Positions 24,843 through 57,503 of a stretch of 64,000 bases of DNA are shown piece after piece. Every line of letters starts with the position of its first letter. The first letter of the stretch is position 1. Under the pieces are notes generated by a model. The model saw only the letters and a list, made by a program, of their open reading frames with translations. It searched no databases and was not told the origin of the DNA. Origin of the DNA: an uncultured bacterium (GTDB taxonomy: Bacteria > Eisenbacteria > RBG-16-71-46 > CAIMUX01 > WJJG01); NCBI GenBank assembly GCA_964603725.1, contig CAZRWW010000015.1, positions 18,494 through 82,493 on the forward strand. The letters are read 5' to 3'. Position numbers and translations under genes: made by a program.

Positions 24843-25145
24843 CGGTCGGAGGCTGCCGATTCGGCCCGCCATGCGATCGCCCGCCGCCACCCCGATCGTC
24901 CCCGGCCGCCTCGGTCATCTCTCACCATGCAGGTCGCGCCCGGCGCTCGGTTTCCATCCATTGTTGGGCAACCCGGTCACGGGGCGATATGATAGGAGTT
25001 GGACCCCGTGCTCGGCCCGGAAGCACCACCGGATGCGAGGGGGCTGGATACGGGGGGACACGGCCCTGGGGGGGACTCGCGGTGATTGCACCCAGAGAAG
25101 CGTCTCTTGCAGACTCGTGGTGACTCAACGCGGGGGAGATCTTTC

Positions 25146-33074: not shown

Positions 33075-33084
33075 GAGGCTGATC

Positions 33085-33660
33085 ATGTCCAGAGAAATGC
33101 GGCCCGCTCCTGGAGTGGTTCTGGTGTGCTTGGCGCTGGCTCTGTGCTGCGCTGCATGGCCTGCGCGGGCGGACCTGTCGCTCACCTGGCACACCATCGA
33201 CGCCGGGGGCCTCACCCTCGGCGCGGGCGGCACCTACTCGTTGGGCGGCACCGCAGGGCAGCCGGACGCGGGCGTGGCCCTCGGAGGCCACTACCATTTG
33301 GGGGGCGGCTTCTGGCGCGGCGGACAGGGCTTCAGCGGCGTGGGAGAGTGCCCCGGCCCCGAACAGGAGCTCCCTGTTCCGGTGGCGTTCCGCGTGCTGA
33401 CCGATGATCCCAACCCTTTCACGACCCAGACGAGCATCCGTCTGGATCTGCCCGAAGGGCGGCCAGTCGACGCATGCATTTTCGATCACACCGGACGTCT
33501 GGTGAATCGCATCTACGAGGGCTGGCTGCCACCGGGCAGGCACAACCTGGTGTGGACCGGGAACTCCGCCAGCGGCCGACAAGTGCCGACCGGGATCTAC
33601 CTGCTCCAGATGCGGGTGGGCGACCACACCACACGCAAGCGACTGGTCTTCTTCAAGTAG
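33085..33660 (+). CDS. small secreted protein with T9SS-type C-terminal domain
   Basis: RBS aggagg, signal peptide and Gly-rich segment. The C-terminus is PNPFTTQTSIRLDLPEGRPVDACIFDHTGRLVNRI...GIYLLQM. Confidence 0.6.
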   Translation: MSREMRPAPGVVLVCLALALCCAAWPARADLSLTWHTIDAGGLTLGAGGTYSLGGTAGQPDAGVALGGHYHLGGGFWRGGQGFSGVGECPGPEQELPVPVAFRVLTDDPNPFTTQTSIRLDLPEGRPVDACIFDHTGRLVNRIYEGWLPPGRHNLVWTGNSASGRQVPTGIYLLQMRVGDHTTRKRLVFFK

Positions 33661-33993
33661 GTCTCTTCTTCAGATCAGCCCGTCTCATCCTGGCGAGGAT
33701 GACCAGCGGCCACCCCCCGCGACGGAGGGTGGCCGCATCACGCTCCAGCCGGCCGCCCGATCGATCTTCTCCCGTTGGTCAAGGGGTGTGCGTGCGAGGG
33801 ACGCAATCCAGTTTCAAGCGCCGGTATGGTGCGCCAAGAGCGGATCAGCACGATACTCGAGACTTCCTGGAACCGGATCGCTTTCGGGCAGTACTGCGAG
33901 TGCATTGAATCGCCAACATGTTCCGAGTCGCCCGAGGGGCCGACCGGAGCGGATAAAGGCTCGTTCGCGTGTTCTGAAACAGAGAGGTGCTCT

Positions 33994-34722
33994 ATGTTCA
34001 TCGTACACAGCCGCTTCTTGCGTCTTGCGCTCGTCACCCTGGCGGCCGTCGCCAGCGTCGCGCTCCTGAACGCCGGCCCTGCCGGCGCGGTTGAAACCAT
34101 CGTCCTGCGCAGCGGCAATGCTCTCCCGGGCAACCCGGATCCCTACATCAACGTGCTCGTGGGCAGCGGGGGCACGGCCCTGTCGCCGAACCCGTTCATG
34201 CCCAGCCACTTCGCCGAGGCCTGCGCCGGCCCCAGCGCGGTGGTCATCTCCCAGCCGATCTCGCCTTGGGTTCAGCACCTCGAGTGCGATCTCGAGGCCA
34301 AGTGGATTGGCATCGATGCCCTCGCCACGCCGGCGTCGGCGCTCTACTGCCAGCCCTTCGAGATCGAGACAGCCTGCATCGAGCGGGCGACGCTCCAGAT
34401 CTGCTGGGCGGCCGACGACAATATCGGCGACCAGCTCTTCGGCGGCGGCAACCCGGAGGGGGTCTTCGTGAACGGCGTGGCGGTCACTCCCATGATCACC
34501 GGCGGCAGCTACGCCGCGCAGACCCAGTCCCTGGTGACCGATATTGCGAGCCTGGTGTCCACCGGGATGAACTACCTCCAGATCTACAACCGCGACGCGG
34601 CCTTCGTCGTCAGCGGCGTGATTTACAGCGCCACGATCGAGATCTACGAGTGCGCGGTCCCCGCGGAGACCTCGACCTGGGGCGCGGTCAAGTCGCTGTT
34701 CGACACCCGCGAGCGGCAGTAG
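33994..34722 (+). CDS. secreted hypothetical protein
   Basis: RBS gagagg and signal peptide MFIVHSRFLRLALVTLAAVASVAL. Ends TWGAVKSLFDTRERQ, which is similar to the C-terminus of the Cys-rich protein at 44586..45830. Confidence 0.55.
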   Translation: MFIVHSRFLRLALVTLAAVASVALLNAGPAGAVETIVLRSGNALPGNPDPYINVLVGSGGTALSPNPFMPSHFAEACAGPSAVVISQPISPWVQHLECDLEAKWIGIDALATPASALYCQPFEIETACIERATLQICWAADDNIGDQLFGGGNPEGVFVNGVAVTPMITGGSYAAQTQSLVTDIASLVSTGMNYLQIYNRDAAFVVSGVIYSATIEIYECAVPAETSTWGAVKSLFDTRERQ

Positions 34723-42678: not shown

Positions 42679-43935
42679 GTGCCGGCGGAGCATCCCATCC
42701 GCATCGATCCGACCATGGCGCGCCGCCTGGCGATCGTCCGTCAGGGGCTCGCGGGTCCGCCCCGCGATCCGGCGGCGGTCGACGCGAGCGCCGTGCTGGC
42801 GCTCGCGCGCGACCTGGGGTGCTTGCAGATCGATCCCATCAGCGTCGTCGCCCCTTCGCACCGGCTGGTGCTCTGGAGTTGCCTCGGGCGCTTCGATGCC
42901 GCGCTCATCGAGGACCTGCGCTGGCGCGAGCGCAGCCTGTTCGACTACTGGGCCCACGAGGCCTCGATCGTGTTGGTGGACGACTACCCGATCCACCGCT
43001 GGTGGATGCGCCGGCGAGGCACCCCGGCGTGGCCATGGCGGCCGTCATACCAGCAGTGGCTGGACGCGAACCAACCGCTGCGGCGGCGAGTCCTCAGGGA
43101 GCTCCGCCGTCACGGGCCCCTCACGGCCCGCGACCTGTCCGCCGAATCGCCGCCCCAAGATCGCCGGTCGGGGTGGGGATCCGGACACGCCGCGCAGTGG
43201 ATGCTCTACGACCTGTGGCACAAGGGGCTGGTGTTGGTGGCCGGTCGCGCGGGCGGCGGTCGCACGTGGGACCTGGCCGAGCGCGTGTTGCCCGTCTGGA
43301 CGCCGCGCGAGCGGCTGAGCGGTCGCGAGGTCGCGCGACGCTCGGCCGAGCGGGCGCTGCGCGCGCTGGGCGTGGCCCGGCCCGAGCACGTCCGCGAGCA
43401 CTTCACGCGCCGGCGCCATCCGGAGCTCGAGAGAACGCTGGCCGACCTTTGCGCGGAAGGGCGCATCCTACCCGTGGAGATCCGCGAGGGGCAGCGGGCC
43501 TGGCCGGGAAGCTGGTGCGTGCACCGGGACGATCTGGCGCTCCTCGACCGGCTCGCGGCCGGGCGCTGGGAGCCGCGCACGACGCTCCTGTCGCCCTTCG
43601 ACAACCTGGTGTGCGATCGCAAGCGCGGGCGCCAGCTCTTCGGCTTCGACTTCGCCGTCGAGATCTACAAGCCGGCCGCGCAGCGCCGGTTCGGATACTA
43701 CGCGCTGCCGATCCTGCACGGGGATCGCCTGATCGGGCGCGCCGATCTGGCGGTCGACCGCGGGAGCGGGCGTCTCGAGGTCAAGGCGATCCAGGCCGAG
43801 TGCGACGCGCCCGGCACGCGCGCGGCCGCGCGGGCGATCGCGGGCGCCATTCGCGACCTGGCCGCCTTCGCCGGCGCGCGGGACGTCGCCTACGGACCCC
43901 GGATGCCCGCCGTGTGGAAGGCGCACCTGCGCTGA
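42679..43935 (+). CDS. winged-helix DNA-binding protein, YcaQ/AlkZ-like (DUF1006) putative DNA glycosylase
   Basis: RLAIVRQGL...LGCLQIDPISVVAPSHRLVLWSCLGRF...LFDYWAHEASIV and C-terminal FDFAVEIYKPAAQRRFGYYALPIL match the YcaQ family layout. Confidence 0.65.
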   Translation: MPAEHPIRIDPTMARRLAIVRQGLAGPPRDPAAVDASAVLALARDLGCLQIDPISVVAPSHRLVLWSCLGRFDAALIEDLRWRERSLFDYWAHEASIVLVDDYPIHRWWMRRRGTPAWPWRPSYQQWLDANQPLRRRVLRELRRHGPLTARDLSAESPPQDRRSGWGSGHAAQWMLYDLWHKGLVLVAGRAGGGRTWDLAERVLPVWTPRERLSGREVARRSAERALRALGVARPEHVREHFTRRRHPELERTLADLCAEGRILPVEIREGQRAWPGSWCVHRDDLALLDRLAAGRWEPRTTLLSPFDNLVCDRKRGRQLFGFDFAVEIYKPAAQRRFGYYALPILHGDRLIGRADLAVDRGSGRLEVKAIQAECDAPGTRAAARAIAGAIRDLAAFAGARDVAYGPRMPAVWKAHLR

Positions 43936-44214
43936 GCTCGGACGCCTGCGCCGAGGCGGGATCGCGGTCGCGGTGGTGCGCTGGCCCGTGGACACGATCG
44001 CACGCGCGGGCACCGGCGCAGGCCGCGGCAACTGGCGGAACCGCGCTCGTGGCCGGGACGGAAAAACGGCGCGGGACCCGCAGGGGGGCCCCGCGCCGGC
44101 GGAAGGTCGGGTGGCACGCACCGTTACCGGCCAGGGTCCGTCGAGCACGGCGCCCTTCGCCGTGCCACAACGCAGCGCCGTGCCACCCGCACACCGTGAG
44201 CTGTCGGCCTGCGA

Positions 44215-44499
44215 TCAGAAGTTGACCTTGTAACCGTTCTCCAGGGCGATGGTCCGCAGCACGTGGACCGCCTCCGCGACGTTGTGCGAGACGCGCGCCA
44301 GCTTGCGCGGCGCGCGCGAGATCAGCGAGATGACCGGCGCCGCGCCGGCCGTGAGACCCTCCAGGGGAACCCGCACGAGGTCGCCCGTGTCGGTGAAGAT
44401 GTAGCACCCGGGCCGTTGGATCTGATCCCAGGTGCACTCCTCGAGCCCGCCCGTCCATCCGAATCCGCGCGGCGGCTGCGAGCGCTCAGGCGGCGTCAC
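44215..44499 (-). CDS. small hypothetical protein (94 aa), possible
   Basis: GTG at 44499 preceded by GAGGAG at 6-nt spacing. Ends ...ALENGYKVNF. It lies in the tail of an artefactual long ORF, so the call is tentative. Confidence 0.3.
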   Translation of the reverse strand: MTPPERSQPPRGFGWTGGLEECTWDQIQRPGCYIFTDTGDLVRVPLEGLTAGAAPVISLISRAPRKLARVSHNVAEAVHVLRTIALENGYKVNF

Positions 44500-44585
44500 C
44501 GTACACTCCTCATCTGCGCCCGGGGGGCCGCCGCAGAGATCCGCGGCTGCCGGAGGGGATGGCGGCGGCTCCCGCGGGCCCTCAT

Positions 44586-45830
44586 CTAGCGATAAAGCGA
44601 CTTGATCCTGCCCCAGGTGGCCTCCTGAACAGGCGTTCCAAAGCAGGGGTTGTCGGGAATGGCGCAGGTGCGGCGCGGATGCCAGATGCGTCCCGGCACG
44701 AACGGCTGTTCCGGGGGCATGCCGTTGAGCACCTTGCATTCGGCCTCCCAGACCATCCGGCAAACCGTGTTGATGCAGCACGCGCCCAGGGCGTCGCAAT
44801 GCGCATCGTCGCACGTCGAGTAGCTCTCGTGCCATGTGCCGCCCAGGGCGCTGCACTGCGCCGAGCTCAGGATCTGGCAGCTCTCGTCGGGCAGGCAACA
44901 GACGCGCTCGGCCTGCACCACGCACGGGTTGGGATTGCAGGGCACGCCCTCGCCCTGCCAGATGCCCTGGCCGTGGATCGGGTGAGGCTTGGTCAGGCAC
45001 ACGGCCTCCGAGTAGACATCGCAGCGAATCACCGCCGTGCCCCAGCAGCAGGCGCCCAGGGGGATGCACGGATTGACCGGCGCGCAGAGGGTCTCGCTGG
45101 GTTTCCAGATGCCGCCGGCGGCGGCGCAGTCGGCCTCGGTCTTGATCGTGCAGGCATAGGTGGTCGGGTTGCAGCAGACGCGCTCGGGAGCCGTGTAGAC
45201 CGGATGCACGGCCACGCCGTTGGCGTTGATGCCCAGGCCCCCGCGATTGGCGGTTGTCACGGGATAGAGCTGCGGGGGGTTCTGCATGTTGCTGAACTCG
45301 CAACTGCCCGTGGCCGGCTCGACGCCGATCTGGATGATCGTGGAGCCCTGGCCGGGACCGTAGGCGTATCCCGCGAAGCAGTAGAGCGGAACATAGTTGC
45401 CCGACCAGGATCCCGTCGTTCCCACGCCGACGATCGCCGTGCCCTGATTGGGTCCGGGCCACCCCGACGTCGGCAGCTCGAGCCCGCCCGCGCTCGGGTA
45501 ACAGGGGCCGAAGTAGTAGAAGCTGAACATGGCGGCCGTGTAGTTCGCGAAGCCGAAGGCCACGCCGCGCCATACCTTCGGCTCGTTCCAGGCGCCCAGA
45601 ACGTACCAGACCGCGTTGTCCAGCGGCCCGTTGATGCGCGTCGACTGGTTCTGCGAGCTGGTGATCGCATACGGAGCGTAGGCCGCCGCCCAGTCCGAGA
45701 CATCCGCGCTGTAGGCCAGCCCCTGCACGTAGTGGGTGATCAACACGCCGCCTGAGAGGTCATTGGGGTCCGCCGCGGCGGACAAGGCGCCCGCGAATAG
45801 GGCCAAGAAGAGCACAGTGGTTTGCTTCAT
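44586..45830 (-). CDS. secreted Cys-rich repeat protein (4 x about 40-aa CC-C-C-W-C-(N/D)PC modules)
   Basis: Signal peptide MKQTTVLFLALFAGALSAAA. Four modules such as RVCCNPTTYACTIKTEADCAAAGGIWKPSETLCAPVNPC. Ends EATWGRIKSLYR. A sigma-54 promoter lies upstream. Confidence 0.65.
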   Translation of the reverse strand: MKQTTVLFLALFAGALSAAADPNDLSGGVLITHYVQGLAYSADVSDWAAAYAPYAITSSQNQSTRINGPLDNAVWYVLGAWNEPKVWRGVAFGFANYTAAMFSFYYFGPCYPSAGGLELPTSGWPGPNQGTAIVGVGTTGSWSGNYVPLYCFAGYAYGPGQGSTIIQIGVEPATGSCEFSNMQNPPQLYPVTTANRGGLGINANGVAVHPVYTAPERVCCNPTTYACTIKTEADCAAAGGIWKPSETLCAPVNPCIPLGACCWGTAVIRCDVYSEAVCLTKPHPIHGQGIWQGEGVPCNPNPCVVQAERVCCLPDESCQILSSAQCSALGGTWHESYSTCDDAHCDALGACCINTVCRMVWEAECKVLNGMPPEQPFVPGRIWHPRRTCAIPDNPCFGTPVQEATWGRIKSLYR

Positions 45831-46007
45831 GTCCGTAGCCTCCTCCCGCACGAATCCGCTGTGCGGTGCCGGGACCCGCGCCCCGCTCGCGCGCCGGGAC
45901 GCCGGGGAGCCCCTGGAGCACTCCGCGTGGCGACCGGCACTGCGACCTGCTTCTGCCGCGGCAACCGGCCGCCACGCGAGTGAGGGAAGCCGTGCTGGAA
46001 CGGAATC

Positions 46008-46023
46008 AGCAAGGAGAGTGCCA
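46008..46023 (-). promoter_or_regulatory. sigma-54 promoter (minus strand TGGCAC-tctcc-TTGCT, canonical -24/-12 spacing)
   Basis: The reverse complement of 46008..46023 is TGGCACTCTCCTTGCT. About 165 nt upstream of ATG 45830 and immediately downstream of the NtrC-type activator gene. Confidence 0.55.
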
Positions 46024-46179
46024 GGGCGGTCGATCGCGTATTGGCTTGTAATGGATTATGTTGCGACGTTCACCCGGCGGGGGCGACCGGGGCGTGGCGC
46101 CCGGGGGTTCCGCCGCTGAGGGGGCGCGCGGCCGGAATCCAGCGTCCCGGGAGCGAGTTGCGGGCGGTGGGGCAGAACG

Positions 46180-47572
<1,393 letters not shown>

Positions 47573-47580
<8 letters not shown>

Positions 47581-49171
47581 GGTTCCTCTCCCCGGGCGCC
47601 AGGGATCCTGACACCTGTTCGCCCACGACTTCTTCACCCGGCCGCCCGTGATCCCGCTCCCCGGCTGTTCGGGCGTCGACCGGAAGGTGCACGGTGACGC
47701 GCGTGCCCCGATTCACCTCGCTGGCGACGTCGATCCAGCCGCCGTGCTCCCGGACGATTCCGTAGGCGATCGAGAGTCCCAGGCCCGATCCTTCGCCGAC
47801 ACCCTTCGTCGTGAAGAAGGGATCGAAGATCTGGGCGAGCGCGTCGGGCGCGATGCCGTGGCCGGTGTCGCTGAAGAGCACGGAGGCGTACTCGCTGGCG
47901 GGGTCAGCGGGGCGCAGGGGGCTCTGGCGACTGGCGGTCGAAACCGCGATCTCCAGCCGCCCGCCCGCGGACATGGCTTCGACGGCGTTGAGACACAGGT
48001 TGAGGAAGACCTGGCTGAGCTGATCGCGATCGGCGTAGATCCAGGGCAAGGACTCGGGGAGCTCCAGGCGCACGGCGACTCCCCGGCGCTCGAAGCGCGG
48101 GTCGAGGAACTCGATGACGCTGTGCAGCACGCGCGCCAGGTCGACCGGCTGGAGCTGCGGCGTGCGGGCCCGGGCGAAGTCGAGCATGCCGTGCACCGTG
48201 CGCGCGATGCGATCGATCTGCCCGAGGATGCTCTGCAGATTGCGCTCAGCCGCCTCGTCCATCGGCAGCTTGCGCTGCAGCGCCTCGACGCGCCCACTGA
48301 TGACGTTGAGGGGCGTGCCGATCTCGTGGGCCAGGCCCGCGGAGATCCGCCCCAGACTGGCCAGCCCCTGCGACAGGCGCATCGCCTTCTCGGCTCGGCG
48401 GCGCAAGTCCTGCTCGGCCAGCACGGCGCGCTCGGCCTCGGCCAGACGCTCCGCCATGGCGTTGAACTCCTGCGCCAGGCGTCCGAGCTCATCGCGGGAG
48501 CGGAAGGGGACGCGCGCACTCAGGTCGCCGGCCCCCACCTGGCGGAAGCTCCGCACCAACATCCGGGTGGGTCGGCTCAGGTAGAAGTAGCTGATCAAGG
48601 AGATCGTCAGCGCGACCGCCAGGGCCATGGCCAGCGTCAGCAGCAGGATCGACCGCCGCGACGCGCGGGCTTCATCGTCCATGAAGGCGGCGAGCTGCAG
48701 CACCTGCAGCGCGCCGAAGCGCGCGCCGGATGGACTGGTCAGGGGGGCGAGAAACGAGATCGTCGACTGACCGTCGATCCTGCGCTCGGACTGGTCGGTC
48801 GCGCCCTCGCGCAGCACGCGGCCGAGGGCCTCGCCGAAGACGAACGGCTGATCAGCGAGGCTCGCGGACTGGTAGATCAGCCGTCCGGCGGCGTCGAAGA
48901 CCCGCACCCCCAGGATGCGCTCGTAGAGCGTCACGTTGTCGATCAGCTCGCGCACGTCCTGCAAGTCGCGGTTGCGGAAGTAGTCTTCCATGGCGAGCTG
49001 GAGCGTCCGGGCCACCGAGCGACCCTCGAGCACGAGCTCGGCGTGGAGCGCCCGCCGGGTGCGGCGGTCGTCGATGTACCCGAAGACGGCCATCAAGAGC
49101 ACGAGCGGCACGACCAGCAGCAGGGTCATCTTGGCGCCGATGTTCACCCGATTCCTCCCTGGAGCGCGCAT
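47573..49171 (-). CDS. sensor histidine kinase (HAMP + HisKA + HATPase)
   Basis: Two TM segments flanking a periplasmic domain, then a HAMP domain. H-box LGRISAGLAHEIGTPLN. N, G1 and G2 boxes (LCLNAVEAM, DTGHGI, GSGLGLSIA). The stop overlaps the regulator start. Confidence 0.85.
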
Positions 49172-49274: not shown

Positions 49275-51875
49275 CTAACGCACGCGGATGACTCGGCGCA
49301 CTTCCTCGAAGGCCTCCGCCCGGCTTTCCAGGCGATAGAAGTAGAGGCCCGAGGGCACGGGGTTGCCACCGTTGTCGCGACCATCCCACAGGAGGCGGTG
49401 GCGGCCCGTGGCGCGCGGTCCTCGGACCAGATGGCGCACCACGCGACCTTCCAGGTCGAGGATGCTCAACTCGACGTCGCTCTCGCGCGCCACGTCGAAG
49501 AGGATCAGCGTCTGATCGCGGAACGGGCTGGGCCCGCCGACGCTGAGCGCCGGCCGCAACGGCAGCTCGATCTCAGTCTCGATGCCCGAGGCCGAGTTGG
49601 TGCCCAGCACGCGCACGTCGTCGATGTACCAGCCCTCGAGGGTCTCGGCCAGATTGTCGCCGTCGCTGCCGAAACGGAAGCGGAACTGCACCGTCCCGGT
49701 GAAGCCCTCGATCTCGAAGACCGACTCGCGCCAGAGCCACCAGCCCGAGAAAACCGGGGTCTGGGGCGGAAACGGCCCGGGCGGGTTGGTCTCGGCAATG
49801 ATGAAATCGTAGCCCGTCGGCGGGTAGATCTGCGTCCAGGGCCCGCTGTTGATCGAGGCCTCGACGATGCCGCCGTCGCTGGCCTTCCCGAAATGGCCGA
49901 AGGCCAGCTCGGCCCGCATGAAGTGCCAGAAGCGAAGCTGCGTGCGCTGCGCCAGCGGAACCGGCGGCGACTCCAGGATGGCGTCGAGCAGGTTGGGGTA
50001 GGTCGCGCCGGAGTCGGGGGAGCCGCACTTCCAGCTCGTCGTCCCGCCGGGCGTGTGGTTGCGCAGCGTGCTCAGGTGCCAGGCGTCGCCGTAGCCGCCG
50101 ATGCCGCTGGTGTGGCCCCACTCACCCGACCCGCCCTCGAACAGGTCCACGAAGCCACCGATCGGGATCTCGAAGGGGATCCGCGCGGTCACGCCCCAGT
50201 CGCCGGTGACCAGCAGGTCCCCGGTCAGGATCTCGGGATTGGGGGCCGCGGGCGAGACACGGATCTCGTAGGGTGGAGCCAAGGTCTCGATCTCGCCGAT
50301 CGCCAGGGTGTCGATGCCAGCCAGGGGCTGCAGGATCTCGAGGTGGGGCGTAGTCGGATGCGCCTCGCCCACGATCGAGGTGGCGCCGACGGCGCCGCGG
50401 TTCTCGAGCGCGATCAGCAGCGTGCCGTCCTCGCCCGGCTCGAGGATGCCACCGCCCGGATCGGCCGCGACGGTGAACGGACAGGTCAAGCTGGCCGATC
50501 GGCCGGGCAGCGAGAATGTGCGCGTCCAGAGCGCGGGCACGCGGCCGCCGGCGGGACCGATCTCGGCCATGACGCGCAGCGAGAAGCTGGCGTTGAAGTA
50601 AGCCGGGGCGGTCGGGCTGACGCGCGCGACAAAGGGCGAGACCGGCAGGCTGCTTTGCTCCGGCTGCAAATTCGGATAGGCGTTGCTGCTGTCCAGAAGG
50701 GTGACGTATCCGTCCAGCGCCCGCAACACGCCCAGGATCTGCGTGGCCGCCGTTCCGCCCACGTTCTGCAGGCGCAAGTCCAGCTCCACGATCTCACCCG
50801 CGTTGAGCACGCCGTCGCCGTTGCCCTGGCTCTGGCCGAGGGCGTCGTCGTTCACCTTGACGCTTTCCAGCGCCAGCCAGGCGCCCGGCGGCGGGTAGAC
50901 CGTCACGAAGCGGGGCGGGTCGACCCGTGTGAAGATCGCCAGGCTCTTGGGCGGCACCGAGCTCCAGCCGGTGGTGTCCGTGCCCACCGGCTCGGAGGCC
51001 ACCACCCACGCCCCGGGAATCTGCTTGTAGCGCAGCTTGTAGCGGGACTGGTCGGTGGTGTCGAATCGCAGGGCGTACAGCGTGTCCCCGCTGGCGGCCA
51101 GGCAGTTGATCGAGCTGTTCGCGGCGCCAGCGTCGTAGATGCGCAGGGCCGCGTCGCGGATGGCTTGGCTGACGCAGGCGGGGCGCGACGCATCCCCGGT
51201 GCGCTCGCCCAGCTCGAGCTGCTTGAGCACGTAGAGGAAGTAGAGCTCGCTGTCGACGTAGGGCGTGTCGTAGTCGGGGGGGTGCTTCTGGAGATACCCC
51301 GGGGTCCCTTCCTCGAGCAGCGCCTGGATGGTCGCCACCACCACCGAGCCGTTGTGCGCCATGCACAGGTTGCCGCGCACGAAGGGATGAGGATCGGGCG
51401 CGTTGGCGTGACCGCTCGAGGCGGCCCGCACGTGCGCCACGGCGCAGTGGGCGTCCTGCTGGCCGATCTCGGCGGCGGCGAGCCGGTAGCGCGGATCGTT
51501 GGGATCGTCCGCGGGCGGCCCGCCGCGCAGCACCTGCGGGCGGGTCAGCCCGGTGCCGCTCAGGCCGGCAGCCCAGTAGGCGATGCCCCAGCCGTCTCGA
51601 TTCGAGGCGGCCAGCGTCATCATCGATCTCGTGCCGCTGACGAGCTGGTCGTCGAGCACGGCGTCGTCAGGCGCGGCGCCGATCATGCCCCACAGGCGGC
51701 AGGCATGCTCAGGAGGCGCGCCGGCGCCGGGCCCCTCGCCCGCGCGGGCGACCGCCGCGGAGCCAGCCATCACGGCCGAGCCGATCACTGCGATGAGGCC
51801 GAAGGCAGCGAGCGGAGGCCCGCCGCGCCGGCGCCGCGCGCGCCGGCCCGCCAACCTTGACGAGATCTCGATCAC
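49275..51875 (-). CDS. secreted class-II glutamine amidotransferase-like (Ntn hydrolase) protein with MAM-like domain and T9SS C-terminal domain
   Basis: GTG start 51875 after GAGGGG. Signal peptide, then ACRLWGMIG...DGWGIAYW...MAHNG (YafJ-like GATase2). The distal domain WHLSTLRNHT...FRFRFGSDG...GWYIDDV is shared with the C25 protein. Ends with a T9SS tail. Confidence 0.65.
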   Translation of the reverse strand: MIEISSRLAGRRARRRRGGPPLAAFGLIAVIGSAVMAGSAAVARAGEGPGAGAPPEHACRLWGMIGAAPDDAVLDDQLVSGTRSMMTLAASNRDGWGIAYWAAGLSGTGLTRPQVLRGGPPADDPNDPRYRLAAAEIGQQDAHCAVAHVRAASSGHANAPDPHPFVRGNLCMAHNGSVVVATIQALLEEGTPGYLQKHPPDYDTPYVDSELYFLYVLKQLELGERTGDASRPACVSQAIRDAALRIYDAGAANSSINCLAASGDTLYALRFDTTDQSRYKLRYKQIPGAWVVASEPVGTDTTGWSSVPPKSLAIFTRVDPPRFVTVYPPPGAWLALESVKVNDDALGQSQGNGDGVLNAGEIVELDLRLQNVGGTAATQILGVLRALDGYVTLLDSSNAYPNLQPEQSSLPVSPFVARVSPTAPAYFNASFSLRVMAEIGPAGGRVPALWTRTFSLPGRSASLTCPFTVAADPGGGILEPGEDGTLLIALENRGAVGATSIVGEAHPTTPHLEILQPLAGIDTLAIGEIETLAPPYEIRVSPAAPNPEILTGDLLVTGDWGVTARIPFEIPIGGFVDLFEGGSGEWGHTSGIGGYGDAWHLSTLRNHTPGGTTSWKCGSPDSGATYPNLLDAILESPPVPLAQRTQLRFWHFMRAELAFGHFGKASDGGIVEASINSGPWTQIYPPTGYDFIIAETNPPGPFPPQTPVFSGWWLWRESVFEIEGFTGTVQFRFRFGSDGDNLAETLEGWYIDDVRVLGTNSASGIETEIELPLRPALSVGGPSPFRDQTLILFDVARESDVELSILDLEGRVVRHLVRGPRATGRHRLLWDGRDNGGNPVPSGLYFYRLESRAEAFEEVRRVIRVR

Positions 51876-52017
51876 ACTGCACCCCTCGGGCCCATGCCCC
51901 TGCCGGGTCGCGTGCCTGCGCCGGTCCGCGGGGCGCGGCTGCCGTCGCGCCGCCGGTCCGCGGTTGCGCACCGTCGCGCCCCTGGCACCCGGCCGCGCTC
52001 CCCCAGCCGGAAGGTGC

Positions 52018-55000
52018 CTATCGCAGCAACGTCATCTTGCGCACCTGGCTCGCGGCATCGCTCTCCAGGCGGTAGAAGTAGATGCCCGCCGGCTGCGGGT
52101 GTCCGCCGCCGTCGGCGCCGTCCCAGATCACAGCGTGGCGGCCCGCGGCCAGCGGCCCGTCGAGCAAGCTGCGCACGATGCGCCCCTGCACGTCCATCAC
52201 GCTCAGCCGCACCTCGCCGGCGACCGGGAGCAGGAAGGCGATCTGGGTCTCCGGCGCGAACGGATTCGGGCGGTTGGCGAGGAGCACCGGCCGCAGCGCG
52301 AGCGCGCGACCGGGCTCCGGGATGGCGCTGGCCGGCGGCCACGAGTGAACCTCGACGTCGTCGATGTACCAGCCCTCCATCGCGTCAGCTCCATCGCTGC
52401 CGAAGCGGAAGCGGAAGCGCGCCATGCCGGACGGGCCCTCGATCGTGAAGGTCTCGAGCTGCCAGCCGTGCGAGCCCGAGAAGACCGGCGTGTCGGCCGG
52501 GAACGGGCCGGGCGTGCTCCCGGTGCGGATGGTGTAAGGGTACCCGCCGTCCGGGTCGATCCGCGTCCAGGGGCCGCCGTCCAGCGACAGCTCGACCAGG
52601 CCGCCGTCGTAGCAGCGGCCCGGGTAGGCGGAGCTCACCTCGGCCGCGATCCAGTGCCAGAAGGTCAGCACCGTCGTCTCGGCGATCTCGATCTCGCCGG
52701 TCATGAGGGCGCCGTCCGCGAGGTTTGTATAAGTTCCCGTGCCCGCGGCCCCGAACTTCCAGCTATGGGATCCGCCCGATGTGTGGTTGCGCTGGCTCGA
52801 GAGGTGCCACTGGTCGTTGAAGCCCGGGGTGACGACCGCGTGACTCCAGGCGCCTTCGCCCGCCTCCATGTCATCGGCGAAGCCGCCGATCCCGATCGGG
52901 GCGCTCAGGTCGATGGCGAGGCTCCAATCGGCGCTGACCCGCAGGCGGCAGGTGACGATGCCCGGGGACAGCGCCCAGGGCTCGAGCATGACCTCGAACG
53001 CCGGCGACAAGGTGGCGGCGCCGCCCACGGGGATCTCCGGCGCGCTCCCGACGGCCTGGGTGACGACGAGCCCGCCGCCCCCGGAGAAGAGCATCCCCGC
53101 GACCGTCGTCGCGTTGCGATGGCCGGCGTTGCTCAGGGTGACCGTGACGAGGGCGGTCTCACCGGGGTCGAGACAGCCATCGCCGTCGCCGCCGAGCTCA
53201 TCGTCGATGGCCAGCGTCACGATCGCCAGCGTGGGGGCATCGGCCGTGTACGTGAAGGAGCCCGTCCAGTGGCCGCTGCCGGCATCGCGGATGTCCAGCG
53301 TGAAGGGCAGCGCGTGCTGATCGGGGCAGTTGCCGGCGATCTGGAAGGTGTAGTGGTCGCCTCCCTGGCCGCCCGCGACGCCGCCGCCGGGGATGGTCCC
53401 GTAGGCCGCCGCCCCGTCGAGGATCGTGACCTCGGGGCTGGCGCACGCCAGCGTGGCCGTCACGCCGGCGATTGGCGCGTTCCAGACGTTGCACAGGTCG
53501 ACGTACAGGTGGATCGTCTCGCCCGCATCACAATCGCCGTCGCCGTTGCCGGCGATGCCGTCATCGATCCAGTGCGATTCGATCACCACGTAGGGTCCGT
53601 TGGGCACGATCGGGAAGGTCGTCTCGGTCACGAGCAGGTCGGCATCCGACACAACCAGGTGCATGGTGCCGGGATAGCCCGGCGCGACCGGGACGGTGAC
53701 GCTGCCGGCGGCGCCGGTGACGCCGAACCCGTAGCAGGTGCCCAGCTCGTCCCACAGACAGACGCGCGCGCCGGCGATCGGCTCGCCGTTGGCCGACACG
53801 GTGACGCCGTAGCTGGTCTGCCCGAGCACGAAGACCCCGGCGTGATCGAGCTGGGGCGTCCGCGGGCGGGCGGTCCAGAGCGGCATCGACGGGTCGCCGA
53901 AGGCGGTGACCTCGTAGTGCACCCAGCGGTTGGATTCGTAGGCGATGTAGGGCACGTTGTCCGTCCGTGAGTCGTCGTTGGCCGCCCCCAGCTCGTTCAG
54001 GCCCTCATCGAAGAGCGCGTCGACGAACTGGCGGTGGTAGTACTGCGAGGAGCCGTTGGTCGTGTAGTGGACGCCGAAGCCGTAGCGCGTGTTGCCGATC
54101 CAGGCCACGAAGCCCTTCTCGGCGTGGACGAACTCCTCATGGATGCAGTCGGCCTGGTCGAAGCACCCGGCGTAGCAGCCTTGAGAGTAGCCGAAGTTGT
54201 AGGTGTGGGTGATGCCATCGGCCGTGAAGGAAGGAATGTCGGAGACGTAGACCTTGACGTCGTAAGTCTCATTGGCGTGCCCCAGGTGATGGGCCATGTG
54301 GCAGCCGCTCGACATCTTGCTGATGAACTGGCTGCCGCTCCAGCTCCCGAACTCCTCATAGAAGGTCGTTGTGTTCCAGCTCAAGGGCACGCCGGCGGTC
54401 GTGTAGCCCCAGGTGCTGGCGCCCAGGCGGATCTCCTCCATGTACCAGTCGCCGTAGGTTCCTTCCCAGAGATACTCGCCGTAGAAGCTGGCCGATTCGA
54501 TCTCGTTGACCACGGGCTGGCGCTCGTAGCGCAGCACCTTGTTGACGTAGTTCAGCGCCTCGCTGGCGTTGTCGGCGCACACGCGCCCGACGTGGATGTC
54601 GGGCACGAGATCGGCCTCCCCGACCTCTCCCCAGCGATCATCTCCGTCGTCGTTCCACGTGCCGTCCAGGCCGCCGTAGTAGAGCTCGCAGCAGAGGTCG
54701 TTGGTCTCCATCGGGTTGCCTTCGTCGATCACGTAGCAGTAGCAGTCCCGATCGGGGATGACGTTGTTGTCGCCCATGAAGAAGATGTACTCGCTCTCCC
54801 AGTTCTGGTAGGCGTCCAGGATGAAGTTGCGGATGCGCTCCTGATTGTCGCGCCCTGTGTAGCTCGCGTAGATGTCGTCGACCGTGACGATCGTGGAAGG
54901 CAGGCCCTTGGCGGTGCGATCGGCCACCAGCGGCTGGCAGGCCGGCACGAGGGCCTGGGTGGTCACAATGACGTGCAGGTACGTGTCGGCCGGATCGACG

Positions 55001-55746
55001 AATGTGCGCCCGTCGCCCGGGCCGCCCGAACCGCCGCCCGGATCGCCCGCGCGGCCGGCGCGGTCGAAGAGCCCGCGGCCGCCGGCGGCGGCGTAGCGAT
55101 CGGCCATCTCGGGGTTGTCGATGTGCCGGGCCAGCCAGGTGCGCGTGGCCTCGTCGGCGCGGAAGGTCGCCGCCGAGCGCGCGCGGGCGCTCTCGTCGGG
55201 CCCGGTCGTGATCTCGACCCTCAACCGCGACCAGAATTCCACCTGGCGGGAGGCCGGCCGAGCGCGCAAGGGGAAGAGCTCGACGTACGCGATGCGGTGG
55301 CCGCGATAGATCTGCACGCTGGCCAGCCGTCCGGCCTCGGCGGGAAAGAGCGCGTCGCTGCCGTAGATCGCGGCCTTGGGCTGCGTCGGCGCGATCGGGC
55401 CCTCGAAGGAAAGCGGATACTCCCGCTGGGCCGGGGCCGGCAGATGCGACGACGCCTGCGCCGCGGCTTCGGCGACGACCCGCACGGAGACGATCTCCTC
55501 GCCCGGCGGCAGGAGGATGCGCGCGGCGCCCACGGGCAGGAGCGGCTCGCCGGCCTGGCCGATCGTGCGGGTGCCGGCGATGGCGGGGACCTCGTGGCCG
55601 GGCCAAGTGGGGTCGCTCTGCCAGGTGGGGGCGGCGAAGGTGTAGCTGAAGGAGAGCTCCTCCGCGACGGCGGGGGAGAGCCCCGCGGCGAGGGTGGCCA
55701 GACCGATCCATGCGAGGGCCCGCTGTGACGCCTTGCTCAGTCTCAT
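52018..55746 (-). CDS. peptidase C25 (gingipain-like) family protein with Ig-like repeats, MAM-like domain and T9SS C-terminal domain
   Basis: Start MRLSKASQRAL at 55746 with a signal peptide. C25 N-terminal domain layout YLHVIVTTQALVPACQPLVADRTAKGLPSTIVTVDDIY...IRNFILDAY...YIFFMGDNNVIP...HVGRV. The C-terminus is PNPF...VMDVQGRIVRSL...GIYFYRL. Confidence 0.7.
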   Translation of the reverse strand: MRLSKASQRALAWIGLATLAAGLSPAVAEELSFSYTFAAPTWQSDPTWPGHEVPAIAGTRTIGQAGEPLLPVGAARILLPPGEEIVSVRVVAEAAAQASSHLPAPAQREYPLSFEGPIAPTQPKAAIYGSDALFPAEAGRLASVQIYRGHRIAYVELFPLRARPASRQVEFWSRLRVEITTGPDESARARSAATFRADEATRTWLARHIDNPEMADRYAAAGGRGLFDRAGRAGDPGGGSGGPGDGRTFVDPADTYLHVIVTTQALVPACQPLVADRTAKGLPSTIVTVDDIYASYTGRDNQERIRNFILDAYQNWESEYIFFMGDNNVIPDRDCYCYVIDEGNPMETNDLCCELYYGGLDGTWNDDGDDRWGEVGEADLVPDIHVGRVCADNASEALNYVNKVLRYERQPVVNEIESASFYGEYLWEGTYGDWYMEEIRLGASTWGYTTAGVPLSWNTTTFYEEFGSWSGSQFISKMSSGCHMAHHLGHANETYDVKVYVSDIPSFTADGITHTYNFGYSQGCYAGCFDQADCIHEEFVHAEKGFVAWIGNTRYGFGVHYTTNGSSQYYHRQFVDALFDEGLNELGAANDDSRTDNVPYIAYESNRWVHYEVTAFGDPSMPLWTARPRTPQLDHAGVFVLGQTSYGVTVSANGEPIAGARVCLWDELGTCYGFGVTGAAGSVTVPVAPGYPGTMHLVVSDADLLVTETTFPIVPNGPYVVIESHWIDDGIAGNGDGDCDAGETIHLYVDLCNVWNAPIAGVTATLACASPEVTILDGAAAYGTIPGGGVAGGQGGDHYTFQIAGNCPDQHALPFTLDIRDAGSGHWTGSFTYTADAPTLAIVTLAIDDELGGDGDGCLDPGETALVTVTLSNAGHRNATTVAGMLFSGGGGLVVTQAVGSAPEIPVGGAATLSPAFEVMLEPWALSPGIVTCRLRVSADWSLAIDLSAPIGIGGFADDMEAGEGAWSHAVVTPGFNDQWHLSSQRNHTSGGSHSWKFGAAGTGTYTNLADGALMTGEIEIAETTVLTFWHWIAAEVSSAYPGRCYDGGLVELSLDGGPWTRIDPDGGYPYTIRTGSTPGPFPADTPVFSGSHGWQLETFTIEGPSGMARFRFRFGSDGADAMEGWYIDDVEVHSWPPASAIPEPGRALALRPVLLANRPNPFAPETQIAFLLPVAGEVRLSVMDVQGRIVRSLLDGPLAAGRHAVIWDGADGGGHPQPAGIYFYRLESDAASQVRKMTLLR

Positions 55747-56016
55747 GATGTGGGAATCCTCCCTGTGTGTAGGACCGCCTCGGGCTCGGCGTTCCTCGGG
55801 GCTTCCGGGGACCGCGCGGCGAGCGCGCACCCCTCTCGGTCGCCTACGGCAGAGCCGGCCACGGCGGCTGCGCGCTGGCGCGGCGGGAGCCCCGGCGAGC
55901 GGGGGGTGAAACTCACTACGATTCTACCACATGGGCAAGGCGAGCGGGTCCTGCGGCATGGCTCGGGGCCGAAGCCGGCGACAGAGCGGGCGGACACTGT
56001 CTGCCCGGGGGGCCTG

Positions 56017-57234
56017 CTATCCCACGTGCTTCTGCGCGTCGAGCGGGCGCCTCTCCTGGGGCATCGGCGCCGCCGGCCTGAGGAGCGCCAGGGTGGCGGT
56101 ATGCATATGCAGGTAGTTGGCCCCGCGGATGGGGCCGATCTCGCCGGCGCTGAGCAGGCCGGCCATCGGCACGCGGTAGCCCAGCGTGCGGATGATCTGC
56201 TGGATCGGGAGCCCCTCGCCGGCCCCCACGCGCGGCCAGCTTCCCACCAGGAAGCCGCCGGCGGCGGGGGAGTCGAGGATCTGGGGCAGGAGCAGCATCT
56301 GGAGATCGTCGGCCAGCGTGTCGTCCCAGGCGTGGAAGCGGATCGTCTTGCCGACGCCGACCTCGCCCGCCAGCGAGATCGTGCCCTCCTTCTGGTCCAC
56401 CGCCACGACGGGCCGAATCAGGAAGTCGCCCCGCCCGAACTGCGTGCTGGGGGCGATGACGGCCTGCCCGAACATGAGCCCTTCCTGGAGCAGGTGCTGC
56501 TCCTCGGACGACAGCGCGGAGACCATCTCCTGCAGCGCCCGCATGGCCGGCACGCCGCTCAGCTCCTGAATGACGTTGCGGTCGGCCTTGGTGACCGTGA
56601 AGGTGCGGCCGACGGGGCGGCAGCCCTGCGACACGACCACGTCCGCGCGGATGTTGCCGGCAAAGGCCGCGCCGACGAGCCCGCTGCGCCGCACGGCCTC
56701 GTTGAGCATGAGCACGTTGAAGCCCGGGCGCCGCCCGCCGCTCGCCAGCCCGCCGATCACGGGCACGCCCGGCGCGAGCATGTTGAGCGACTCGAGCAGG
56801 TCGCCGATCGGCGTGCTGAAGGGATCAGCCAGCAGGATCATGAGCTGCGGATCGGGAAGCAGCTCCAGCAGGTCGCGCCAACGCTCGAGTCCGGCTTGCG
56901 CTTCGGAGAAGTCCTCCTGCTCCATGAGCACCGGCGCGATCTTGACGCCGGGCAACGAGCCGGCCATCACCGTCATCGCGCCGCGATCGACCGAGCGGCC
57001 GGCGGAGTGGATGATGCCGGCGGCCGTGGCGCCCAGCAAGAAGGCCTGGGGCCACGTTCCGCGCAGCAGGTCGCTCACCTCGCGCATGCGGCGGGCGTGA
57101 TCCTGCGTGGCGAAGAGCAACAGCAGATCGGGCGCCAGGCCGTCATCGGCCAGATGCCTTTCCAGCGCGGTCAAGATCTCGCGCGCAGCGCTCAGCGAAT
57201 GGCGCTGATGCGATGTGACCGAGATGAACTTCAT
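56017..57234 (-). CDS. FIST domain signal-transduction protein (FIST N + FIST C)
   Basis: MKFISVTSHQ... with LLLLFATQDH, IGGLASGG and FHAWDD blocks typical of FIST sensors. Confidence 0.7.
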   Translation of the reverse strand: MKFISVTSHQRHSLSAAREILTALERHLADDGLAPDLLLLFATQDHARRMREVSDLLRGTWPQAFLLGATAAGIIHSAGRSVDRGAMTVMAGSLPGVKIAPVLMEQEDFSEAQAGLERWRDLLELLPDPQLMILLADPFSTPIGDLLESLNMLAPGVPVIGGLASGGRRPGFNVLMLNEAVRRSGLVGAAFAGNIRADVVVSQGCRPVGRTFTVTKADRNVIQELSGVPAMRALQEMVSALSSEEQHLLQEGLMFGQAVIAPSTQFGRGDFLIRPVVAVDQKEGTISLAGEVGVGKTIRFHAWDDTLADDLQMLLLPQILDSPAAGGFLVGSWPRVGAGEGLPIQQIIRTLGYRVPMAGLLSAGEIGPIRGANYLHMHTATLALLRPAAPMPQERRPLDAQKHVG

Positions 57235-57503
57235 GGCTGCCAGCCTTGCCGCCCCCTGCTCCGGCGCCGCGCGCCCCGATGCCCTCGGGCTCGGCGCGGC
57301 CCGATCTGCGCGTCCCGCGCAGCCCATTCATGTATAGCATATTCAGGTACACCGCCGGCAGGACAAGGTTCTTGCGCGCCGCGCTACTAGAATCTCAGTC
57401 TACCACAGGCCTGCGGCGGGGAAGCCACGAGTCCAGCTCGAGAACGTCGCTCCGTGCCGCCGGGCGGGCCGTCCCATTGCCGGGCCGGCGGACGGCCGGG
57501 CCG

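What the first reader, a model, noticed from the sequence alone, without database searches (positions are those of the whole stretch)
44586..46023. Canonical sigma-54 promoter driving a secreted Cys-rich four-module repeat protein, next to its NtrC-type activator and sensor kinase
The reverse complement of 46008..46023 is TGGCACtctccTTGCT. This is an exact -24 GG / -12 GC architecture with correct spacing. It lies about 165 nt upstream of the minus-strand gene 44586..45830 and directly downstream of the sigma-54 enhancer-binding protein gene (46180..47580) and its histidine kinase (47573..49171). The target protein carries a signal peptide and four copies of a roughly 40-residue module with the Cys pattern CC-x(5-7)-C-x(6-9)-C-x(3-8)-G-x-W-x(4-9)-C-x(2-5)-(N/D)PC (at least 20 cysteines in about 170 residues). 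I cannot assign the module to a known disulfide-rich domain family. A disulfide-rich exported protein under enhancer-dependent control beside surface proteases and secreted selenoproteins is suggestive of a regulated extracellular function.
Basis: partly seen in the sequence, partly recalled or inferred. Interest (0 to 1): 0.6.

Follow-up and report, generated by a model that had tools for sequence, protein, structure and literature searches.

The report
Sigma-54 operon for a surface protein

Summary
TGGCACtctccTTGCT at 46008..46023(-) is the only exact match in the window (0.03 expected). It keeps GG-N10-GC at the aligned position in five orthologous loci and is degenerate in a sixth.

It lies downstream of a histidine kinase and an NtrC-type activator. 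Together these look like one unit: candidate enhancer, promoter, structured leader, the 414-aa gene, a missed 93-aa ORF and an intrinsic terminator.

The 93-aa gene looks like the older target. In three distant loci it follows a sigma-54 site beside the same kinase or activator family, with no Cys-rich gene present.

The exported protein has four parts:
- a signal peptide;
- four 6-Cys modules of a common ~37-aa repeat, absent from Pfam and NCBIfam, whose only weak match is a segment of the iRhom homology domain;
- a strictly C-terminal tag, [ST]WGxIKx[LM]Y[RQ].

In relatives other C-terminal ends, mainly T9SS-type domains, take the tag's place. Eisenbacteria MAGs carry at least 9-11 paralogues each; only this orthologue group has the promoter.

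The regulation is ordinary; the protein parts are uncharacterised. rpoN and the transcription start could not be tested.

The parts
47573..49171 (-). Sensor histidine kinase. It has an N-terminal membrane segment, an extracytoplasmic sensor region of about 150 aa, then HAMP, HisKA and HATPase_c. It overlaps the activator gene by 8 nt. The start codon is uncertain.
   Evidence: Pfam hits. It is 47% identical over its full length to the kinase beside the 93-aa gene in L058. It is syntenic in L001, L003 and L004.
46180..47580 (-). NtrC-type response-regulator enhancer-binding protein: receiver, AAA+ sigma-54 interaction domain and Fis-type HTH. The sigma-54 contact loop reads GSFTDA instead of GAFTGA.
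   Evidence: Pfam hits. The G(S/A)FTDA loop occurs in all orthologues. It is 62% identical to the receiver-less activator beside the 93-aa gene in L056, which carries the same loop.
46160..46205 (-). Candidate enhancer (UAS). Two copies of ATTC(G/T)GCCCC lie 21 bp apart (GATTCGCCCCAG ... CGTTCTGCCCCAC). They overlap the last codons and the stop codon of the activator gene, about 158 nt upstream of the -24 element. This assignment is inferred, not shown.
   Evidence: TYCKGCCCC occurs at 0.056 per kb per strand in all fetched DNA. It lies at -157 to -160 from the -24 element in the window, L001, L003 and L004. A near variant lies at -159 in L058 and another at -127 in L056. In L004 the motif is non-coding and is duplicated upstream of an inserted OmpA gene.
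46008..46023 (-). Sigma-54 (-24/-12) promoter, TGGCACtctccTTGCT.
   Evidence: It is the only exact match in the window, with 0.03 expected. GG-N10-GC is kept at the aligned position in L001, L053, L003 and L004. An AT-rich tract lies just upstream in a genome of about 69% G+C.
45923..45979 (-). Conserved inverted repeat or hairpin in the leader (GCGTGGCGGCCGG ... CCGGTCGCCACGC) with a variable loop. Its role is unknown.
   Evidence: RNAalifold on five orthologous leaders gives a 16-bp stem. The arms are almost invariant and only one pair covaries. Nothing in Rfam matches. The whole leader folds only slightly better than shuffles, z = -1.7.
44586..45830 (-). First gene: an exported 414-aa protein. 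Signal peptide at 45771..45830. Cohesin-fold N-domain at 45189..45770. Four 6-Cys modules at 44643..45182. Linker plus C-terminal tag TPVQEATWGRIKSLYR at 44589..44636. RBS GGAGGAGG lies upstream.
44215..44499 (-). Second gene: a conserved 93/94-aa protein with no signal peptide. GTG start with RBS GAGGAG 6 nt upstream. No known family.
   Evidence: It is conserved downstream of the target in all six orthologous loci at 57-84% identity. GC3 is 0.91. It has 16 homologues. In L055, L056 and L058 it follows a sigma-54-like site beside the same activator or kinase family, without the Cys-rich gene. There are no hits in Pfam, NCBIfam, PADLOC, PHROGs or PDB sequences.
44067..44098 (-). Intrinsic terminator that closes the two-gene unit: a 13-bp stem with 12 G-C pairs, followed by TTTTT.
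   Evidence: No terminator-like site lies between the two genes. No sigma-70-like promoter was found in 43900..46300.

Best explanation
This is a two-component, sigma-54-dependent transcription unit.

Proposed mechanism:
1. The membrane kinase (47573..49171) senses an unknown signal outside the cytoplasm and phosphorylates the receiver domain of the activator (46180..47580).
2. The activator binds an enhancer about 150-180 bp upstream of the promoter. The candidate site is the tandem ATTCKGCCCC repeats that overlap the 3' end of its own gene.
3. Across an AT-rich, probably bent spacer, the activator uses ATP to open the sigma-54 holoenzyme complex at TGGCAC-N5-TTGCT (46008..46023).
4. The transcript has a leader of about 166 nt with a conserved GC-rich hairpin. 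It carries two genes and ends at the terminator at 44067..44098.

Gene 1 encodes a Sec-exported, disulfide-rich surface or extracellular protein. It has a cohesin-fold domain, four 6-Cys modules and a short C-terminal tag. The tag most likely acts as a sorting or attachment signal, because other family members carry a T9SS-type domain, a dockerin-like end or a hydrophobic-plus-basic tail in its place.

Gene 2 encodes a small cytoplasmic protein. It is the evolutionarily older target of this kinase/activator family and may act back on the system. That last point is inference only.

Shown here: the sequence features, their conservation, the synteny, the fold class and the strict C-terminal position of the tag.

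Inferred: activator binding at the proposed site, the transcription start, co-transcription of the two genes, the localisation of gene 1's product, and the function of both proteins.
For: Promoter. It is the only exact match, with 0.03 expected. GG/GC and their spacing are conserved at the same aligned column in the window, L001, L053, L003 and L004, within an intergenic alignment of 53% mean identity.

Specificity. In 37 paralogue loci not next to an activator, I counted two upstream sites scoring 18.0 or more against about 1.9 expected from the background rate (my arithmetic).

Regulators. Domain content is, and synteny of kinase, activator, target and 93-aa ORF is.

Linkage of the 93-aa gene to sigma-54 sites in distant loci:
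- L058: TGGCACGCAGTTTGCG about 70 nt upstream of the small gene, followed by an orthologous kinase and a receiver-domain gene cut off by the contig end.
- L056: CGGCGTGGACGTTGCA between a 62%-identical GAFTDA-type activator and the small gene.
- L055: GGGCATGGCCGTTGCA in the same position.

Enhancer candidate. A rare motif (0.056 per kb) lies at a fixed distance of about -158 in loci with different gene content.

Operon end. There is a terminator only after the second gene.

Protein.
- Among the 148 best family representatives, 67 end in the tag, about 45 by my reading end in a T9SS/FlgD_ig-like tail, and others end in dockerin-like or hydrophobic-plus-basic tails.
- The tag also occurs on proteins with neither the N-domain nor the modules.
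- It lies 0-6 residues from the stop in 53 of 53 cases.

Sigma-54 control of cell-exterior functions is a documented theme (PMC3162934).
Against: - No rpoN gene was seen in the window or in any fetched locus. The rest of the genome could not be searched.
- The activator's sigma-54 contact loop is GSFTDA rather than the canonical GAFTGA. F and T are kept.
- The sixth orthologous locus, L054, has a degenerate site (TGGTGCGGTCTGTGTA, with GT at -12) and a chimeric kinase-activator gene.
- One small-gene homologue (L057, Gemmatimonadales) has neither an activator nor a sigma-54 site nearby.
- The enhancer motif is a direct repeat, whereas Fis-type HTH dimers usually bind inverted repeats. In three loci its conservation could partly reflect the coding sequence it overlaps.
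- The hairpin shows almost no covariation.
- No expression data of any kind were available.
Confidence: 0.75

Rival explanations
1. The promoter exists for the 93-aa gene only. The Cys-rich gene landed between promoter and target and is expressed mainly from a promoter of its own, so sigma-54 control of the surface protein is incidental or weak.
For: In L055, L056 and L058 the small gene alone follows the sigma-54 site. In L004 two further genes (OmpA and a 731-aa gene) sit between the activator and the target, which shows the region accepts insertions.
Against: - In all orthologous loci the -24/-12 element lies upstream of the Cys-rich gene, not between the two genes.
- In L004 the promoter and the enhancer motif stay immediately upstream of the Cys-rich gene despite the insertion.
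- No sigma-70-like promoter and no terminator lie between the promoter and the small gene.
- In L054 the two genes are 12 nt apart.
Confidence: 0.12
2. The match is a chance occurrence in G+C-rich intergenic DNA, and the genes are transcribed from an unrecognised promoter type of this phylum.
For: Promoter consensus sequences for Eisenbacteria are unknown. rpoN was not observed. The activator loop is non-canonical.
Against: Only 0.03 exact matches are expected per window. The site is conserved in position in four further orthologous loci. Independent sigma-54-like sites lie beside the same activator family in three distant loci. The site is adjacent to the only activator gene in the window.
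Confidence: 0.05
3. Alternative function for gene 1: the cohesin-fold domain of one molecule binds the C-terminal tag (or a Cys module) of the next. The family would then self-assemble into a surface fibre or lattice, and the tag would be a docking or donor peptide rather than a sorting signal.
For: - The cohesin fold is a protein-protein docking module.
- Relatives that carry only the Cys modules end in dockerin-like sequences.
- Each genome has many paralogues.
- C25 (gingipain-type) peptidases are neighbours. From my own knowledge, such peptidases mature type V pilins in Bacteroidota.
Against: - The tag also occurs on proteins that lack the cohesin-fold domain.
- Many family members carry a T9SS-type C-terminal domain where the tag would be, which fits a sorting role better.
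- AF2 places the tag with pLDDT below 50 and does not dock it.
- There is no sequence similarity to cohesins.
Confidence: 0.15

Closest known systems
NtrC-class two-component sigma-54 regulons, such as NtrB/NtrC-glnAp2, or PrsK/PrsR of the PEP-CTERM system
   Same: A membrane or sensor kinase is translationally coupled to a receiver-AAA+-HTH_8 activator. There is a GG-N10-GC promoter with an upstream element about 150 bp away and an AT-rich spacer. The regulated product belongs to the cell exterior, in line with PMC3162934. As in the PEP-CTERM case (PMC1569441, seen; the comparison rests on my own knowledge), the target carries a short C-terminal tag.
   Different: The contact loop is G(S/A)FTDA rather than GAFTGA. 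The candidate enhancer is a direct repeat that overlaps the activator's own stop codon. The conserved target is an uncharacterised 93-aa protein. The signal is unknown.
Cohesin modules of cellulosomal and non-cellulosomal scaffoldins (Pfam Cohesin)
   Different: Sequence identity is 3-12% and there is no Pfam match even at E = 10. The domain is about 190 aa, so it carries extra elements. No dockerin partner is known in these genomes. Binding was not tested.
iRhom homology domain (the luminal Cys-rich domain of eukaryotic iRhom1/2)
   Same: A profile of 44 modules matches only iRhom1/2 among 177,635 PDB sequences, at E 0.0013-0.004. All six Cys are aligned: CC-x5/6-C-x7-C-x13-C-x4-C. Foldseek independently lists iRhom1 chains at probability 0.91-0.92 and 19-20% identity.
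   Different: The match covers one segment of about 36 aa in a 240-aa domain held by eight disulfides (PMC13277793). Here the unit is a free-standing tandem repeat in bacterial exported proteins. The E-values are borderline, and convergence of a small disulfide knot is not excluded.
T9SS C-terminal sorting domains (Por_Secre_tail / FlgD_ig-type) and other C-terminal sorting tags
   Same: The tag occupies the same extreme C-terminal position on exported proteins. In family members the two are alternatives to each other.
   Different: The tag has only about 10 conserved residues after a Pro/Thr linker. It is not an 80-aa beta-sandwich and it has no transmembrane helix. No processing enzyme or receptor is known. 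No model in Pfam or NCBIfam hit it, and the motif did not turn up in the paper library.

Membership tests
Sigma-54 (-24/-12) promoter | GG and GC dinucleotides separated by 10 nt within TGGCAC-N5-TTGCW | tested here: met
   There is an exact match at 46008..46023(-). It is the only one in the window, with 0.03 expected.
Sigma-54 (-24/-12) promoter | Conservation of the element in orthologous upstream regions | tested here: met
   GG-N10-GC is kept at the aligned position in L001, L053, L003 and L004. The element is degenerate in L054.
Sigma-54 (-24/-12) promoter | An rpoN gene in the same genome | not testable with these tools
   No RpoN box was found in the window or in 58 fetched loci. Presence of rpoN is inferred from the presence of an activator.
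Sigma-54 (-24/-12) promoter | Transcription start about 12 nt downstream of the GC, dependent on the activator | not testable with these tools
   No transcript data were available.
NtrC-type response-regulator enhancer-binding protein | Receiver + AAA+ Sigma54_activat + HTH_8 architecture | tested here: met
   Pfam E-values are 1.6e-28, 2.2e-69 and 2.6e-14.
NtrC-type response-regulator enhancer-binding protein | GAFTGA sigma-54 contact loop | tested here: inconclusive
   The loop is GSFTDA here and GAFTDA in relatives. F and T are kept, and Gly-5 is replaced by Asp. The variant is conserved across the subfamily, including L056.
Cohesin (Pfam PF00963) | Nine-stranded jelly-roll fold | tested here: met
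Cohesin (Pfam PF00963) | Sequence-profile match to the family | tested here: not met
   No Pfam hit at E up to 10 for residues 21-213.
Cohesin (Pfam PF00963) | Binds a dockerin | not testable with these tools
   No partner was identified. Dockerin-like ends occur only on relatives that carry the modules without the N-domain.
iRhom homology domain | Cys spacing and sequence of the conserved CC...C...C...C...C segment | tested here: inconclusive
   The profile hit has E 0.0013 with six of six Cys aligned, and iRhoms are the only family hit. Foldseek gives probability 0.92. The significance is borderline.
iRhom homology domain | A domain of about 240 aa with eight disulfides, placed between TM1 and TM2 of a rhomboid-like protein | tested here: not met
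   Here the unit is a tandem repeat of about 37 aa in a soluble exported protein. The domain description comes from PMC13277793.
T9SS cargo (Por_Secre_tail / FlgD_ig C-terminal domain) | A C-terminal sorting domain of about 80 aa | tested here: not met
   The target has no such hit. Neighbouring genes and many family members do.

The most novel reading that the evidence does not exclude
The 10-residue end [ST]WGxIKx[LM][YF][RQ], which follows a Pro/Thr linker, is a previously undescribed C-terminal sorting or attachment signal of Eisenbacteria and their relatives. It would be interchangeable with T9SS C-terminal domains. It marks a large unannotated surface-protein repertoire built from a cohesin-fold domain and a 6-Cys repeat of about 37 aa. 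That repeat may share ancestry with the core of the eukaryotic iRhom homology domain. This operon would be the first member of the repertoire with an identifiable regulator.
Probability: 0.35. Interest if true: 0.7.

Novelty: new member of a known kind. Interest (0 to 1): 0.45.

Why it matters
The regulatory logic is textbook, so it adds only a clean, conserved example from an uncultured phylum. It also documents a distinctive GAFTDA-loop activator subfamily with a conserved 93-aa partner of unknown role.

The larger value lies in the target. Its profile finds 8,010 cluster representatives in public metagenomes, and Eisenbacteria MAGs carry at least 9-11 copies each. None of its three building blocks is in Pfam or NCBIfam.

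If the C-terminal tag is a sorting signal, it points to unknown export or anchoring machinery. That machinery could be sought by phylogenetic profiling.

If the link between the 6-Cys repeat and iRhom is real, it gives a bacterial relative for a eukaryotic domain; I found no paper describing a bacterial relative.

Tried and rejected
Searches that failed or found little:
- A genome-collection scan with the 20-sequence alignment failed because no stretch was conserved enough. It worked with 8 sequences.
- The metagenome scan with the single protein returned only the locus already held.
- Rfam had no match in 44000..46400 at E up to 1.
- Pfam at E up to 10 gave nothing on either half of the target or on the 93-aa protein, apart from a chance Gp10_D3 hit at E 0.25.
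- NCBIfam, PADLOC and PHROGs gave nothing meaningful.
- The afdb50 fold library was unavailable.
- The 93-aa protein profile had no meaningful hit against PDB sequences.
- Literature searches for the tag motif and for Eisenbacteria secretion or sigma-54 found nothing relevant.
- A 37-aa profile was too short for the homologue search. A five-module query returned 12 unnamed proteins and gave no taxonomic information.
- There is no paralogue of the target elsewhere in the window.

Weak results:
- The AF2 model of the 93-aa protein was poor (pLDDT 48), so I ran no fold search on it.

Ideas considered and dropped:
- A riboswitch in the leader. There is no Rfam hit and almost no covariation.
- A precise IHF site. 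The tract is AT-rich, but only L054 matches the consensus I recalled.
Full report
**Observation**

On the minus strand, 46008..46023 reads TGGCACTCTCCTTGCT. This is an exact TGGCAC-N5-TTGCW element with GG and GC 10 nt apart. It is the only exact match in 64 kb on either strand. Dinucleotide-preserving shuffles give 0.03 expected. Allowing one mismatch adds no further site.

The element ends 177 nt before the ATG at 45830, which is preceded by GGAGGAGG.

Immediately upstream, 46180..47580(-) encodes Response_reg + Sigma54_activat + AAA_lid_14 + HTH_8. 47573..49171(-) encodes HAMP + HisKA + HATPase_c. The two genes overlap by 8 nt.

The 414-aa product of 44586..45830 starts with a signal-peptide-like sequence. 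It contains four modules of six Cys each, at residues 217-255, 259-303, 309-345 and 349-396.

**Is the promoter real?**

The protein has 28 relatives in the word-indexed search. The closest (60-78% identity: P0001, P0003, P0004) lie in the same gene order: C25 peptidase, GATase_4/FlgD_ig protein, kinase, activator, target, 93-aa ORF. P0002 is on a 2.2-kb contig and P0005 is 43% identical. Both add the target and small-ORF pair, and the P0005 locus (L054) also has an activator-like gene upstream.

I aligned the six upstream regions; mean identity is 53%. The -24/-12 element sits at one aligned position:
- window: TGGCACTCTCCTTGCT
- L001: TGGCATCCTCCTTGCG
- L053: TGGCACGCCCCCTGCA
- L003: CGGCATGCGTTGTGCA
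- L004: TGGCACGCTCCCTGCT
- L054: TGGTGCGGTCTGTGTA, which is degenerate

L054 also has a chimeric kinase-activator gene and may be decaying.

A species-representative genome scan found 43 loci that encode relatives. Single Eisenbacteria MAGs carry at least 9-11 copies.

I then scanned 450 nt upstream of 37 paralogues that are not next to an activator. By my count two sites scored 18.0 or more, against about 1.9 expected from the background rate. The paralogues therefore show no enrichment, and only the orthologue group has the promoter.

**The unit is an operon, and the second gene is the older partner**

A 93/94-aa ORF (44215..44499, GTG start, RBS GAGGAG, GC3 0.91) follows the target in all six orthologous loci, at 57-84% identity. 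In L054 the gap between the two genes is 12 nt.

The consensus scan finds no terminator between the two genes and no sigma-70-like promoter in the region. It finds a 13-bp, 12-GC stem followed by TTTTT at 44067..44098(-), after the small ORF.

The small protein has 16 homologues. Their contexts are as follows:
- In L056 it lies directly downstream of a receiver-less activator. That activator is 62% identical to the window's AAA+/HTH region and has the same unusual loop. CGGCGTGGACGTTGCA lies between the two genes.
- In L055 it follows fragments of an activator gene and GGGCATGGCCGTTGCA.
- In L058 a near-perfect TGGCACGCAGTTTGCG lies about 70 nt upstream of it. A kinase 47% identical over its full length, and a receiver-domain gene cut off by the contig end, follow it.
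- L057 (Gemmatimonadales) is the exception, with a GerE-type gene next door and no sigma-54 site.

None of these four loci carries the Cys-rich gene. The conserved module is therefore kinase + GAFTDA-type activator + sigma-54 promoter + 93-aa gene. In one Eisenbacteria clade the Cys-rich gene has become the first gene of that operon.

**Other cis-elements**

The motif TYCKGCCCC is rare, at 0.056 per kb per strand in all fetched DNA. It lies at -157 to -160 from the -24 element in the window, L001, L003 and L004. A near variant lies at -159 in L058 and another at -127 in L056.

In the window there are two copies 21 bp apart (GATTCGCCCCAG and CGTTCTGCCCCAC). They overlap the last codons and the stop codon of the activator gene.

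In L004 two genes are inserted between activator and target. There the element is non-coding, stays in front of the target, and is duplicated in front of the inserted OmpA gene. That gene also has a sigma-54-like TGGCCCGCTTTGTGCA.

I take this motif as the candidate enhancer. That is an inference.

An AT-rich tract lies between it and the promoter.

The leader contains an inverted repeat, GCGTGGCGGCCGG...CCGGYCGCCACGC (45923..45979). Its arms are conserved, its loop varies, and only one pair covaries. Rfam has no match. Its role is open.

**The protein**

Neither Pfam nor NCBIfam matches any part.

*Alignment.* It shows a signal peptide, a conserved N-domain of about 190 aa, a variable number of Cys modules and an invariant C-terminal end.

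*Family size.* A profile search of 1.84 billion cluster representatives finds 8,010 proteins at E of 0.001 or better and 1,409 at 1e-30 or better. Some are giant proteins with many copies of either part.

*Cys module.* Its consensus is GACCLxDGxCxVLTExDCxAxGGxYQGDGTSCDPNPC, commonly 37 aa with six Cys. I counted 1,695 modules in 176 fetched proteins. Proteins with about 30 such modules still get no Pfam hit for the repeat. A profile of 44 modules matches only iRhom1/2 among all PDB sequences, at E 0.0013-0.004 with all six Cys aligned. Foldseek independently listed iRhom1 chains at probability 0.91-0.92. The iRhom homology domain is a 240-aa region held by eight disulfides (PMC13277793). The similarity covers only one segment and is borderline.

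*C-terminal tag.* The motif [ST]W[GS]x[IVM]Kxx[YF] occurs 53 times in ORFs of the fetched DNA, always 0-6 residues from the stop and never internally. It is also found on proteins without the N-domain or the modules, including a second protein in this window at 33991..34722(+).

Among the 148 best representatives, 67 end in the tag. By my reading about 45 end in T9SS/FlgD_ig-like tails. Others end in dockerin-like or hydrophobic-plus-basic tails. This choice of alternative ends suggests that the tag is a sorting or attachment signal. I found no description of it.

**Mechanism and limits**

The best reading is a standard pathway. The kinase senses an external signal. The phosphorylated activator binds the upstream repeats and opens the sigma-54 complex. 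One mRNA then yields an exported disulfide-rich surface protein and a small cytoplasmic protein. This fits the documented link between sigma-54 and the cell exterior (PMC3162934).

Several things are not shown:
- rpoN in this genome (none in the fetched DNA);
- the transcription start;
- activator binding at the proposed site;
- co-transcription of the two genes;
- localisation and function of the two proteins.

The activator loop GSFTDA departs from GAFTGA but is conserved in the subfamily. The model of the 93-aa protein was too poor to use.

**Verdict**

The regulation is a new member of a known kind. The protein's building blocks are the novel part.

Noticed in passing
window 33991..34722 (+): A second exported protein of about 243 aa, with no Pfam hit, has neither the cohesin-fold domain nor the Cys modules. 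It ends in ...PAETSTWGAVKSLFDTRERQ*, the same C-terminal tag. This shows the tag is modular.
   Followed up: partly
window 49275..51971 (-), 52018..55830 (-), 32992..33660 (+), 31503..33074 (+): This is a cluster of exported proteins. One is a GATase_4 (class-II amidotransferase-like) domain fused to a FlgD_ig tail. Others are a C25 gingipain-type peptidase with a FlgD_ig tail, a small FlgD_ig-tailed protein and a C10 peptidase. The GATase_4/FlgD_ig and C25 genes are syntenic with the kinase in L001-L003.
   Followed up: partly
L004 3165..6424 (same contig as L005 and L010): In this relative an OmpA-domain gene and a 731-aa gene of no known family are inserted between the activator and the target. 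The OmpA gene has its own copy of the CTGTGGCATCCTGCCCC motif and a sigma-54-like TGGCCCGCTTTGTGCA, so the regulon may have grown by duplication of the control region.
   Followed up: partly
L054 3751..5118: The gene upstream of the P0005 orthologue looks like a kinase-activator chimera (HAMP/HisKA fused to the C-terminal half of the AAA+ domain and HTH_8). The promoter there is degenerate. This could be decay of the system or an assembly artefact.
   Followed up: no
window 45923..45979 (-); also L055 about 5850-5880 and L056 about 5910-5950: GC-rich hairpins follow the sigma-54 site in all loci. In L056 the arm sequences (GCCGCCA...TGGCGGC) appear in the opposite order to the window's (GTGGCGGCC...GGTCGCCAC). 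That would fit an RNA stem better than a DNA-binding site, but it was not tested.
   Followed up: partly
L013, L019, L028, L031, L035, L038, L039, and proteins P0029-P0176: The cohesin-fold domain also occurs inside very large proteins (up to 4,145 aa with 15 matched stretches). It combines with beta-helix and PMP repeats, T9SS tails or dockerin-like ends, so it is a widely reused surface module.
   Followed up: no
L007 1595..3670: A relative's contig encodes SelB next to tandem paralogues of the target. Selenoprotein synthesis is therefore plausible in this lineage.
   Followed up: no
window 25086..28385 (+) and 56017..57327 (-): A 1,099-aa TPR + CHAT (caspase-like) protein and a FIST-domain sensor protein lie in the same window. 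Neither has an evident link to the operon.
   Followed up: no
window 42679..43935 (+): An AlkZ-like DNA glycosylase gene lies between the MutL-like gene and the operon's terminator. It is absent at this position in L001, L003 and L004, so it is a local insertion relative to close relatives.
   Followed up: no
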